64,000 bases of DNA from the human T2T-CHM13v2.0 reference genome, Homo sapiens. The notes beneath the pieces were generated by a model. That model did not search any database. It saw nothing but the letters and a program-made list of their open reading frames with translations, and was not told the DNA's origin. The stretch lies in NCBI RefSeq assembly GCF_009914755.1, contig NC_060930.1; one strand, 5' to 3'. This document shows positions 43,848 through 47,486 of this stretch, piece after piece. A program made the translations under genes and the position numbers. The stretch's first letter is position 1, and the number at the start of each line of letters is the position of its first letter.

Positions 43848-44514
43848 AACCTGCATGGGTTCCAGGCCCCAGCTTCTGCCAACTCTGATGGGAAAGCATC
43901 GTGGGCTGCTGAAATTGTATTCCTTCTCTAGCACCTTCTCTGGATAGGCAATAAAGTAGTGGAGCAAAAGGGTGGAAGAACACTTCCTGGCCAACTCCAT
44001 GCCCACTTCAAAGCCAGAATCAGGAAGCTGTTGTGCCAGGGAGTACCTGAGAAGAGCTGAAAGCTGAAGCTGCTCCTTCTGTGATACAAGAGACAATGAA
44101 AAACTGGTGAAGGTGCTGATGATGTCTGCAGGGACAGACGACACTGACTCCCACCTTGTGAACTCTGCACAGATGCTACACAAACTGGCTGGGCACGGTG
44201 GCTCACACCTGTAACCACAGCACTTTGGGGTGCCAGGGCGAGTGGATCGCTGAGCTCAGGAGTTCGAGACCAGCCTGGCCAACATGGTGAAACCCCGTCT
44301 CTACTAAAAAATACAAAGATTAGCCGGGCGTGGTGGTGGGCGCCTGTAAACCCGGCTACTCGGGAGGCTGAGGCAGGAGAACCGCTTGAACCCGGGAGGC
44401 AGAGGTTGCAGTGAGACAAGATCGCACCACTGCACTCCAGCCTGGGCAACAGAGCAAGACTCCGTCTCAAAAAAAAAAAAAAAAAAAGAACTCAAACTTC
44501 TAGTGACTTTCACA
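43848..44514. repeat. Inverted repeat arm A (interrupted by an AluS at 44187-44487)
   Basis: Reverse complement of 47123-47486, ~80% identity by eye. Confidence 0.93.
44187..44487 (+). mobile_element. AluS inserted in inverted-repeat arm A
   Basis: Dimer; CAAACT is duplicated at the flanks. Confidence 0.93.
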
Positions 44515-46544
44515 GGTAATTTGTGATCTGAAAATATAATTGAATCTATTAAGTAATTAAGGCTATCATCCTGGAGAACAAAGAAATAGGACCAAGCAAG
44601 GGCTTTGGTATGCTTAGCGTAACAAGCAGAGACTCCATATCAGGCCAGGAAAAAGGGATTTAAATCACAAAGCATTCCTCTGACTCATGTGGGAAAGAAA
44701 ATTGAGATTTAAAACATGTTCCTTTTATTTTTTTAAATCATCTTTCTACTAGGCAAGGAATTTTTTTTTTTTTTTTGAGCTGTTCAATCTCTAATTTGCC
44801 ACATCAATATGTCCCCAAATAAGGGATCTCAAATTTTGGAACCTATTGAACATCTAAATGTAGTAACAAAACAAAAACAAAACAAACTAATGGAAAGGAT
44901 CCCAGTCTGAAAAACACCAAAACAAAAGAGTGGTTTTACAAGCTCTGCCAACTCTCAAAGGCACAAAGTGTGCTATGTGGCAGGCGCCACAACCTGGCAA
45001 ACAGTAGCAGGTCGGAGGAGAGGCTGACTGAGTGGCCCATCAGGGAGCATTCATAGCTGCAGAGTCCACAGACTGCAATTTACATGCTTGCTGTCCAGTA
45101 AGTATTTTCATTTAAAGTATGCTACATCCATTTCAAACAAGAGAATCCAATTACAAATTCTAAATCTGCCTAAGCTATGGGCCCTTTGGGGGTCATGAAG
45201 AGCTCAGCTAACACTAAGCTGACAAATAGGCTCTTTTCTTCTAAATACTTTTAGAATGCATTTTATGTGACCATTTCATACTTTACAACATCCACTTGGG
45301 GGTTGGTGCCTACAATAGTAGGAGAAGCCAGAAGGAGGTTGAGAGATATTGAATGGATAAACTACATGGATACCTTCTCCTAGAAGAAGGAAAAAAGAAG
45401 CCAACAATTACTGAGTGGAGGTTGGGAGGAACCCAGCTACTCTCCTTGCGTCCCAGGGGGCAAAGGGCTGTCACAGGCCTGGCCTATCTCCCCATTCTCT
45501 TCTTTATTGAAACACCTGCTCCTAGATAACCAGTCCTGTTTCCAGAATTGTAGAGGAATCATTATCGGAAAGGAAGATGTCTAAAGAACTGTCTGAGCTT
45601 TCTAATCAAATGTGAATAGATCTCATTTCAGTCTTTGAGTGCCCCCTCAAACTGCCACTTTTCCTAGATGCATTAGGAGTATTCTAAGTAAGTGACATGG
45701 CAATGTGTTTTCTTTTTAGTTTACAAATGATGCATATGCCCTAAACTTCATGACACTTTTTCTGTTATCCTATGTCCTTTATTTTACAGAAGTGGAAAAC
45801 CTTAGAAAAATTTCAAAAGGGTGTGTGCTTTCTGTAAATAGTAAGGTAGGGAGAGGTTTTGATACTGAGTTTGGTTTCCAAGTAGAGGAAAGAAGGAGAA
45901 AAATTATAGTTGGCTGAGGACAGGGTAGGGAGAAAAATTTGAGGAAGCAAGAAAACCTGCTTTAGAAATAGTAGAATCTGAGCAATTTGAAGGTACATCA
46001 TTATACCATTAAAGTAGAATAGATGTTTAATACAAATTGGGTGAATAACTATACACATGTTTTTCATAGGGATTTTATAATAACATTACTATCTAATAGG
46101 TTAAATAGGCTTTTGTGGGTTATCAGTTATACATGAAATATTTTTATAATGTGCAAATGTGTCCCAGCTTTCAAACACCTAATTCATATATGAACTTCTG
46201 GAACATAACCCATTTATTATTGAGAATTATTATTTTAAAAAACAAGCACTATAAGAGTATGGCAAATAGGCATAAGGAAAGGATCATAGGTAATCATATT
46301 TTAGAGCTAGTTAGGAAAGGAAGTTCATTTAATATGTGTGGTTAACTATTTAGATTTTTAAAATGTCTTAGAAATAATCACACCTGTGTTCCTCAATTAA
46401 TACTTTTGGATAAACTATTCAATTTTCTCTAGGCAAGATTTTCTGGCAGGCTAAACTTGACTTTGTAACAAATATTTGTCAGCAAAAATAAGGTAACTAC
46501 TTATGCCTGAAAAAGTTCTATTTTTTAAATATTCTAAAAGATGA

Positions 46545-46842
46545 TTTTTTTTTTTTTTTAAAGATGGGGTCTCACTCTGTTACCCAGGCTGGAGTGCAGT
46601 GGTGTGATCATAGCTTACTGCAGCCTCGAACTCCTGGGCTCAAGTGATCCTTCTGCCTCAGCCTCCCAAGTAGCTGGGACTACAGGAACATGCCACAACA
46701 TCCAGCTGATATTTTTATTTTTTGTAGAGATAGAGTCTCGCTTTGTTGCCCAGTCTGGTCTTGAACTCCTGGCTTCAAGCCATCCACCCATCTTGGCCTC
46801 CCAAAGCACTGCGATTACAGGTGTGAGCTACCACATCCATCC
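46545..46842 (-). mobile_element. AluJ
   Basis: Dimer with TSD TAAAAGATGA. Confidence 0.9.
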
Positions 46843-47122
46843 TAAAAGATGAGTTCTTAAAAATCATCTGAAATCACTGTGGACAAGTATTTATTAAACC
46901 TCAAAGCCATCTCTGAAAACAGGAAAGATTCAAAGAATAGCTAATAGCAGTCTTATTACTGAGAGTTGTATTTCACACAAGGAAAATTTACCTTCTCTTT
47001 CTATAGCTCACCAAATTGATTTTAGAAGATTTTGATCATAAGAAAAATCACACTAAAGTAATACATGAACACTGGCCTGCAGAATGGTCAAATTAATGTG
47101 ACCACATTAAAAATGATACAAA

Positions 47123-47486
47123 TGTGAAAGTCACTAGCAGTTTGAGTTCTAATATAGCATCTGTGCAGAGTCCACAAAGCAGGAGTCAGTGCTGTCTTCC
47201 CCTGTGGGCATCATCGGCCACCTTCACCAGTTTTTCATTGCCTCTTGTATCGGAGGAAGGAGCAGTTTCAGCTTTCTGCCCTTCTCAGCACTCCCTGGTA
47301 TAACAGCCCCCTGACCTTGGCTTTGAAGCAGGCGTGAAGGTGGCCAGGAAGTGTTCTTCCACCCTTTAGCTTCACTCCTTTATTTTGTATCCAGTGAAGG
47401 GGCTAGAGAAGCAATTCCATCTCAGCCAGCCCAGGAGGCTCTCCCATCAGAGTTGGTAGAAGCCCCGGCAGGAACCAATGCAGGTT
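47123..47486. repeat. Inverted repeat arm B
   Basis: Shares perfect blocks with arm A, e.g. the 27-nt AAAGGGTGGAAGAACACTTCCTGGCCA (as reverse complement). Confidence 0.93.

What the first reader, a model, noticed from the sequence alone, without database searches (positions are those of the whole stretch)
43848..47486. ~360-bp inverted repeat of unrecognised sequence flanking 2.6 kb of intron 1
Seen: 43848-44514 (minus its Alu) is the reverse complement of 47123-47486. Identity is ~80% by eye, with perfect blocks of 27, 22 and 17 nt and a 2608-bp spacer. I do not recognise the arms as any repeat family or gene, and I see no TSD outside them. Arm B keeps the empty site (TATT|AGAACTCAAACT) of the AluS in arm A, so the duplication predates that Alu. 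Inference: an ancient inverted duplication, long TIRs of an unannotated element, or a long-range pre-mRNA stem or duplicated enhancer. My rough count of transitions (~20 G:U-compatible on the MAP7 strand vs ~14 on the other) shows no clear selection for pairing.
Basis: partly seen in the sequence, partly recalled or inferred. Interest (0 to 1): 0.7.

Follow-up and report, generated by a model that had tools for sequence, protein, structure and literature searches.

The report
Old one-off inverted duplication in MAP7 intron
Two ~360-base copies of an otherwise unique stretch face each other across 2.6 kb inside a MAP7 intron; they look like the decaying scar of a single ancient rearrangement, not a mobile element or a selected RNA structure.

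Summary
The inverted repeat is real. Arm A (43848-44186 plus 44487-44514, split by an Alu) and arm B (47123-47486) align over about 357 columns at 85% identity, with a 2608-bp spacer.

Across the whole T2T-CHM13 assembly each arm finds only itself and its partner. Three conserved blocks of 27-33 nt, allowing up to 3 mismatches, occur only at these two places. A control query from the same window recovered thousands of candidates for an old repeat at 74-81% identity.

There is no target-site duplication, no coding remnant and no Rfam family in the arms. The differences look neutral:
- 32 transitions to 21 transversions;
- mismatches evenly spread along the arms;
- wobble-compatible transitions 18 on the MAP7 strand against 14 on the other (p = 0.60).

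A local Alu clock places the event after an older Alu in the spacer and at or shortly before the Alu in arm A.

Best reading: a single local inverted duplication in a primate ancestor, made either by an inversion with one staggered break or by a replication template switch, and drifting since. This is an ordinary kind of feature and of low interest. Dfam, cross-species and RNA-editing checks could not be run.

The parts
43848..44186 (+). Arm A, outer and main part (339 nt). Its last 9 nt (44178-44186) are the 5' copy of the Alu's target-site duplication.
   Evidence: aligns to the reverse complement of 47155-47486 at 83-85% identity; only itself and arm B match in the whole assembly.
44187..44489 (+). 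Alu (AluS-like by divergence) with A-tail, inserted into arm A after the duplication. Its 3' target-site duplication copy is 44490-44498.
   Evidence: (SRP/Alu-type Rfam matches at 44188-44470). Arm B has no Alu at the equivalent site. Non-CpG K2P to a local Alu consensus is 0.071.
44487..44514 (+). Arm A, inner end (28 nt as aligned; it overlaps the end of the A-tail and the 3' target-site duplication copy).
   Evidence: pair I13: 28 nt, 96% complementary to 47123-47150..
44515..47122 (.). Spacer of 2608 bp. It is unique sequence apart from one older Alu, and it holds the RefSeq 'enhancer' 45379-45548 listed in the hub's table.
   Evidence: only self-matches in the assembly; 0 of 16 ORFs reach a Pfam cut-off.
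46545..46834 (-). Older Alu (AluJ-like by divergence) inside the spacer. It forms a nested inverted pair with the Alu in arm A.
   Evidence: pair I1 (179 nt, 79%).; non-CpG K2P 0.173 to the local Alu consensus; duplexfold about -400 kcal/mol.
47123..47486 (-). Arm B (364 nt), the reverse complement of arm A, uninterrupted.

Best explanation
A stretch of about 355-365 bp of ordinary, unique intronic DNA was duplicated once, locally and in inverted orientation, in an ancestor of humans, probably an early anthropoid or haplorhine primate. The event came after an older Alu had entered what is now the spacer and before, or about when, the AluS-like element entered arm A. Two one-step mechanisms give exactly this anatomy. 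(a) An inversion of the 2.6-kb segment in which one of the two breaks was staggered by about 360 nt and filled in. This leaves the staggered stretch at both ends in opposite orientation (the 'dupINV' class of human complex variants; the staggered-break inversions of Drosophila). (b) A replication template switch that copied about 360 nt from the opposite strand 2.6 kb away. I lean slightly to (a), roughly 40% against 35% of the total. Since then the two copies have drifted apart neutrally. Shown here: the two-copy status, the sharp ends, the order relative to the Alu in arm A, and the neutral-looking substitution pattern. Inferred: the mechanism, the absolute age and the absence of function. 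As a by-product the arms could pair in MAP7 pre-mRNA, but nothing indicates that this is selected.
For: Two-copy status. Both arms as queries against the 3.1-Gb assembly gave 2 of 2 first-look candidates, self and partner, at E up to 10. Three conserved blocks (27, 33 and 29 nt, up to 3 mismatches) gave 1 forward and 1 reverse hit each, with 0 for the reversed-pattern controls. No further copy lies in the 64-kb window at word size 7.

Sensitivity control. Window 47487-51880 recovered an old ~370-bp interspersed repeat (about 51007-51377) with 7253 candidates; the 39 non-self matches among the 40 candidates scored were 74-81% identical.

Surroundings. Spacer and flanks are unique.

Neutral pattern.
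- 32 transitions and 21 transversions, K2P 0.167 (non-CpG 0.152-0.157).
- Longest perfect run of 27 nt has P = 0.31 under random placement.
- Wobble-compatible transitions 18 against 14, p = 0.60.
- Duplex energy -548 against -541 kcal/mol on the two strands.

Order of events. The Alu in arm A is absent from arm B. Per-arm non-CpG divergence is about 0.077, against 0.071 for that Alu and 0.173 for the spacer Alu.

Precedent. Ranz et al. 2007 (PMC1885836, passages read) found 17 of 29 Drosophila inversions with inverted duplications of non-repetitive sequence, median 321 bp, often at one breakpoint only. Collins et al. 2017 (PMC5338099, passages read) list dupINV/INVdup classes in human genomes.
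Against: No outgroup sequence was available. The single-copy ancestral state, the orientation of the spacer and the date are therefore untested. The assembly search relies on a 'loose first look' and could miss very old or very low-copy family members below about 70% identity. Dfam was not available, so the duplicated unit itself may derive from an ancient repeat. The Alu clock uses a mixed consensus of 29 local Alus, which inflates the value for older subfamilies. Gene conversion between arms would make the repeat look younger than it is. A base-skew test for spacer inversion was inconclusive. No microhomology or other junction signature was identified that would point to one mechanism.
Confidence: 0.75

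Rival explanations
1. The arms are the long terminal inverted repeats of a non-autonomous DNA transposon, or another mobile or viral insertion with long terminal repeats, that inserted here as one 3-kb unit.
For: The geometry (about 360-bp inverted ends, sharp outer boundaries, about 3 kb in total without the Alus) is what a long-TIR element would look like.
Against: No other copy of arm, spacer or flank exists in the assembly. There is no target-site duplication at the outer ends: the best direct match is an offset 8-mer with P about 0.2. 0 of 16 spacer or arm ORFs reach a Pfam cut-off, although at about 8% decay per lineage a transposase should still be visible. The Alu in the spacer appears about twice as old as the arm-to-arm split, which does not fit cargo that arrived with identical ends, unless gene conversion kept the arms alike.
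Confidence: 0.1
2. The inverted repeat is maintained by selection. One version is a long-range double-stranded stem in MAP7 pre-mRNA (an ADAR or dsRNA-sensor substrate, or a loop that affects splicing). The other is a duplicated regulatory element bracketing the annotated enhancer at 45379-45548.
For: The arms can form a very stable duplex (about -545 kcal/mol by duplexfold). They lie in a transcribed intron and bracket a RefSeq-listed enhancer (hub table). Chen et al. 2017 (PMC5398296, abstract and two sections read) argue that some expressed inverted duplicates are functional.
Against: There is no strand preference in wobble-compatible changes (18 vs 14, p = 0.60) or in duplex energy. 15% of the aligned columns differ, there are 6 indel events, and a 300-nt Alu has been tolerated in one arm. 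Mismatches are spread as chance predicts. No Rfam family matches the arms. The 2.6-kb loop exceeds the 1-kb limit that Chen et al. used for likely hairpins. The nested inverted Alu pair is a closer competitor for pairing.
Confidence: 0.07
3. The arms are two independent insertions, or two fragments, of one interspersed repeat family that happen to lie 2.6 kb apart in opposite orientation.
For: This is the commonest source of inverted repeats in the human genome (general knowledge; Chen et al. 2017 report enrichment in repetitive regions). I could not run Dfam.
Against: Only two copies are found genome-wide, while the control shows that families at 74-81% identity are detected. Both arms begin and end at the same two positions, which independent fragments would rarely do. 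They are much closer to each other (85%) than to anything else.
Confidence: 0.04

Closest known systems
Inversions flanked by an inverted duplication: the 'dupINV/INVdup' complex structural variants of human genomes (Collins et al. 2017, PMC5338099) and the staggered-break inversions of Drosophila (Ranz et al. 2007, PMC1885836)
   Same: Inverted copies of otherwise non-repetitive sequence sit at the two ends of a segment. The size is typical (Drosophila median 321 bp), duplication at one breakpoint only is common, and the copies later decay (about 88% identity in Drosophila).
   Different: Here the inverted state of the spacer is not shown because no outgroup was available. The segment is only 2.6 kb, and the event is old and fixed rather than polymorphic or disease-linked.
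Inverted duplicates catalogued genome-wide with Inverted Repeats Finder (Chen et al. 2017, PMC5398296; Warburton et al. 2004, recalled only)
   Same: Two reverse-complementary arms with a spacer, in non-repetitive DNA. Millions of smaller ones exist in the human genome.
   Different: The 2608-bp spacer exceeds the 1000-nt limit of that catalogue, and the catalogue analysed intergenic cases whereas this one is intronic. Arms of about 360 nt are at the long end for non-repeat-derived cases (my impression, not counted).
Template-switch mutations that create or homogenise inverted repeats (Walker et al. 2021, PMC7954356, search listing only; discussion in PMC8755829, passages read)
   Same: Replication copying from the opposite strand nearby yields a local inverted copy in one step.
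   Different: Described events are mostly tens of bases over short range. Here the copy is about 360 nt at 2.6 kb.
Inverted Alu pairs as intronic dsRNA and ADAR substrates (general knowledge, recalled)
   Same: An intronic inverted repeat of about 300 nt within a few kb could pair in pre-mRNA. One such Alu pair is nested in this very structure (44187-44486 / 46545-46834).
   Different: The arms are not Alu or any recognisable repeat, and no editing data were seen.

Membership tests
Interspersed repeat / transposable-element family | Multiple dispersed copies in the genome | tested here: not met
   2 of 2 candidates are the arms themselves; block patterns with up to 3 mismatches hit only the two arms. 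Control one search recovers an old family (7253 candidates, 74-81% identity). Dfam was not available.
DNA transposon with long terminal inverted repeats | Target-site duplication directly outside the two outer ends | tested here: not met
   no direct repeat of 7 nt or more (one mismatch allowed) was found in the 25-nt strips spanning the two outer boundaries. An 8-mer (TTCCTACC) lies 20 nt off the left boundary; P is about 0.2 by shuffling and by window sampling.
DNA transposon with long terminal inverted repeats | Transposase remnant or other copies of the internal region | tested here: not met
   0 of 16 ORFs (of the 43 listed; the other 27 were not scanned) reach a Pfam cut-off; the spacer is unique in the assembly.
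LTR retroelement (paired or solo LTRs) | LTRs in direct orientation flanking an internal region, or other solo copies in the genome | tested here: not met
   The copies are inverted and there are no other copies.
Duplication-flanked inversion (dupINV; staggered-break model) | Inverted copies of otherwise unique sequence at both ends of one segment, with sharp co-terminal boundaries | tested here: met
Duplication-flanked inversion (dupINV; staggered-break model) | The segment between the copies is inverted relative to the ancestral, single-copy arrangement | not testable with these tools
   No other mammalian genome is held. The skew proxy was inconclusive: spacer A-T skew at the 85th percentile and C-G skew at the 10th percentile of 84 tiles.
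Selected structured RNA / dsRNA element | Pair-preserving substitutions favoured on the transcribed strand, or a match to a curated RNA family | tested here: not met
   18 vs 14 wobble-compatible transitions (p = 0.60), and the 21 transversions all break pairing; all 11 Rfam matches at E up to 1 lie in Alus; none lies in the arms.
Selected structured RNA / dsRNA element | Experimental duplex or A-to-I editing evidence | not testable with these tools
   No editing or duplex-mapping resource is available. The full-text search for MAP7 + 'inverted repeat' + intron found 0 papers.

The most novel reading that the evidence does not exclude
The repeat is more than a scar. The two arms pair in MAP7 pre-mRNA, or recombine in DNA, so that the 2.6-kb enhancer-bearing segment is looped out or has flipped orientation among primates. 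That would make it a lineage-specific regulatory or ADAR/dsRNA-sensing element built from non-repeat sequence.
Probability: 0.05. Interest if true: 0.5.

Novelty: new member of a known kind. Interest (0 to 1): 0.15.

Why it matters
It matters little by itself. It is a clean, datable example of a small inverted duplication of unique sequence fixed in the human lineage. It could serve as one data point on how often duplication-flanked micro-inversions or long-range template switches become fixed in primates. It also marks a place where non-Alu dsRNA might form in a MAP7 intron. It should not be annotated as a transposable element on present evidence.

Tried and rejected
1. Profile searches of the assembly. 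Sensitivity therefore rests on single-sequence and pattern searches.

2. An 18-kb query was swamped by Alus: 51277 candidates, 39 scored, and all 150 listed matches at Alu positions. It was useless as a control and was replaced.

3. Base-skew test for an inverted spacer. The spacer's A-T skew is +0.081 (85th percentile) and its C-G skew -0.056 (10th percentile) among 84 tiles with SD 0.077 and 0.063. Inconclusive.

4. Target-site duplication and flank similarity. An 8-mer direct repeat has P about 0.2. One of 16 arm-against-flank comparisons reached P = 0.013 (a 13-nt exact match, GCCCACTTCAAAG, between arm A and the right flank), which is expected by chance over 16 tests. A direct-orientation match in the 100-nt flanks (P = 0.012) is not co-linear with the 8-mer. 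All three are treated as chance.

5. An internal 27-nt hairpin in arm B (pair I14) is not kept in arm A (read), so it was rejected.

6. Coding potential: 43 stop-to-stop ORFs of 40 aa or more, of which 16 were scanned against Pfam. Only three sub-threshold hits appeared (E 0.01-0.26).

8. The window file carries no soft-masking, so NCBI's masking of the arms could not be read.
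Full report
OBSERVATION

The inverted repeat is present at the coordinates given. The repeat finder on 43000-48500 returns a co-linear series of inverted pairs linking 43872-44178 and 44487-44514 with 47123-47463:
- I10: 37 nt, 89%
- I2: 137 nt, 82%
- I12: 33 nt, 91%
- I11: 33 nt, 97%
- I3: 64 nt, 81%
- I13: 28 nt, 96%, with 2608 nt between the arms

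With the Alu at 44187-44486 taken out, a gapped alignment runs from 43848 to 44514 against the reverse complement of 47123-47486. The global alignment has 304 identities in 357 aligned columns (85%). It has 32 transitions, 21 transversions, 6 gap events (9 columns) and K2P 0.167. The longest perfect runs are 27, 21 and 17 nt.

The match has E = 1.7e-84 within the window and 2e-87 against the whole assembly. Similarity ends abruptly at both ends. The 300 nt outside the outer ends and inside the inner ends score 12 and 13; shuffles, run for the outer pair only, average 11.6.

Arm B is continuous across the place where arm A holds the Alu. That Alu with its A-tail (44187-44489) is bracketed by a 9-nt direct repeat matching at 8 of 9 positions (44178-44186 and 44490-44498). 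The Alu therefore entered arm A after the two copies existed. There is an 8-nt length difference between the arms next to this site, and its origin I cannot resolve: either a deletion in arm A or part of the tail and target-site duplication.

IS IT A KNOWN REPEAT?

No Dfam or RepeatMasker library was available, so I used copy number in the window's own assembly (T2T-CHM13, 3.1 Gb).
- Arm B as query gave 2 first-look candidates, both scored: itself and arm A (83% identity over query 33-364).
- Arm A's 339-nt left part, with E allowed up to 10, likewise gave only itself and arm B.
- Three blocks conserved between the arms were searched with up to 3 mismatches: a 27-mer, a 33-mer and a 29-mer. 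Each hit once forward and once in reverse, at the two arms. The reversed-pattern controls gave 0.
- Within the 64-kb window, blastn at word size 7 found no third copy.

The tool warns that its first look is loose, so I ran controls. An 18-kb query was swamped by Alus and was uninformative: 51277 candidates, 39 scored, and all 150 listed matches at Alu positions. The Alu-free stretch 47487-51880 recovered an old interspersed repeat of about 370 bp at roughly 51007-51377. It drew 7253 candidates, and the 39 non-self matches among the 40 candidates scored were 74-81% identical. Families of that age and abundance are therefore seen, and the arms are not one of them.

The spacer (44515-46544), the inner-right segment and right flank (46835-48500) and the left flank (43210-43847) also match only themselves. 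Members below about 70% identity or in very low copy number therefore cannot be excluded.

OTHER FEATURES TESTED

Rfam with permissive thresholds over 43000-48500 gave 11 matches at E up to 1. All lie inside the three Alus (SRP-like and Alu-derived miRNA families), none reaches its gathering score, and none lies in the arms.

Of the 43 stop-to-stop ORFs of 40 aa or more that overlap the structure, I scanned 16 against Pfam. None of the 16 reached a curated cut-off, and three weak hits had E of 0.01-0.26. At about 8% decay per lineage, a transposase or viral gene that arrived with the arms should still be detectable.

No target-site duplication flanks the outer ends. The best candidate is an 8-mer that is 20 nt out of place on the left, with P about 0.2 both by shuffling and by sampling window pairs at the same spacing.

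IS THERE A SIGN OF SELECTION?

Every transition between the arms keeps a G:U pair on one strand or the other. 18 do so on the MAP7 (minus) strand and 14 on the plus strand (binomial p = 0.60). The 21 transversions break pairing on both strands.

Duplex energies are -548 kcal/mol on the minus strand and -541 on the plus strand. A perfect run of 27 nt or more arises in 31% of random placements of the same number of non-matching columns, with a mean longest run of 24.7. The 'perfect blocks' are therefore not evidence of conserved sub-elements.

One arm has also tolerated a 300-nt Alu. As far as sequence alone can tell, the arms are diverging neutrally.

DATING

I built a local clock from the 29 near-full-length Alus in the window, aligned them, and measured each against their majority consensus at non-CpG sites.

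| Element | Non-CpG K2P |
|---|---|
| Alu in arm A | 0.071 |
| Alu in the spacer (46562-46832) | 0.173 |
| The 29 window Alus, range | 0.048-0.190 |
| Arm against arm | 0.152-0.157 (about 0.077 per arm) |

The order of events this suggests is: older Alu in the spacer, then the inverted duplication, then the Alu in arm A. This agrees with the empty site in arm B.

From recalled ages for the Alu subfamilies (AluJ roughly 55-65 My, AluS roughly 30-40 My; no call supports these), the event would fall somewhere around 40-55 My ago.

Two caveats apply. The mixed consensus inflates the value for older subfamilies. Arm-to-arm gene conversion would make the repeat look younger than it is.

If the ordering holds, the spacer was resident DNA before the arms became two. 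That argues against a mobile element arriving with identical ends.

MECHANISM

Two one-step routes give this exact anatomy.

(a) An inversion of the 2.6-kb segment with one staggered break. The staggered stretch of about 360 nt is filled in on both products and ends up at both ends in opposite orientation. Ranz et al. 2007 (PMC1885836, passages read) found this in 17 of 29 Drosophila inversions. The duplications were of non-repetitive sequence with a median of 321 bp, 12 of the inversions were duplicated at one breakpoint only, and the copies were about 88% identical. In human genomes the same signatures are catalogued as dupINV, INVdup and dupINVdup (Collins et al. 2017, PMC5338099, passages read).

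(b) A replication template switch to the opposite strand 2.6 kb away. Template switching at inverted repeats is discussed in PMC8755829 (passages read). Described cases are much shorter.

The two routes differ only in whether the spacer was inverted, which needs an outgroup genome that I could not obtain. A proxy based on strand skews was inconclusive. I lean slightly to (a).

CONSEQUENCES

In MAP7 pre-mRNA the arms could form an imperfect duplex of about 360 bp around a 2.6-kb loop. Competing with it is the nested inverted Alu pair (44187-44486 plus strand, 46545-46834 minus strand; 179 nt at 79%; about -400 kcal/mol). That pair is 2.06 kb apart and is the textbook kind of ADAR substrate (recalled).

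Chen et al. 2017 (PMC5398296; abstract and sections 6 and 12 read) show that inverted duplicates are extremely numerous in human DNA, 4.3 million under their settings. They regarded spacers above 1 kb as unlikely to form hairpins.

The RefSeq 'enhancer' at 45379-45548 (hub table) sits in the spacer, 865 nt from arm A and 1575 nt from arm B. Nothing ties it to the arms.

A full-text search for MAP7 + 'inverted repeat' + intron returned 0 papers. That search does not cover subscription journals or databases.

VERDICT

- The transposon-TIR option is disfavoured.
- The functional options have no support but could not be tested with expression, editing or conservation data.
- This is a new instance of a well-known kind of feature and is of low interest.

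Noticed in passing
window 44187-44486 (+) and 46545-46834 (-): An inverted Alu pair is nested inside the structure: 179 nt at 79% complementarity, 2060 nt apart, duplexfold about -400 kcal/mol. It is a more conventional candidate for intronic dsRNA and A-to-I editing than the unique arms.
   Followed up: partly
window about 51007-51377: An old interspersed repeat of about 370 bp. The query containing it drew 7253 first-look candidates in the assembly, and the 39 non-self matches among the 40 candidates scored were 74-81% identical. Its family was not named, since no repeat library was available. It was used only as a sensitivity control.
   Followed up: partly
window 44001-44013 and about 47512-47524: A 13-nt exact match (GCCCACTTCAAAG) in the same orientation between the interior of arm A and the right flank just outside arm B. 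The extended alignment has P = 0.013, but it is one of 16 comparisons, so it is probably chance.
   Followed up: yes
window 43820-43827 and 47486-47493: An 8-mer direct repeat, TTCCTACC, lies near but not at the two outer boundaries (20 nt off on the left). It is not significant (P about 0.2).
   Followed up: yes
window 44512-44520, + strand: The inner junction of arm A reads CAG|GTAATT, a good 5' splice-site-like motif on the strand opposite to MAP7. Arm B's junction lacks it. No transcript is annotated on that strand in the hub table.
   Followed up: no
window 44321-44372, 46581-46640, 43089-43149: Sub-threshold Rfam matches to mir-1268, mir-3135 and mir-1285 all lie inside Alu elements. They are Alu-derived look-alikes, not evidence of miRNA genes.
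   Followed up: no
window 1246-1778 and about 11490-11999: Of the 20 longest NCBI-masked stretches, 19 contain an Alu. These two places, a whole stretch and the non-Alu part of another, share a sequence with each other that looks by eye like a young L1 3' end (recalled, not tested).
   Followed up: no
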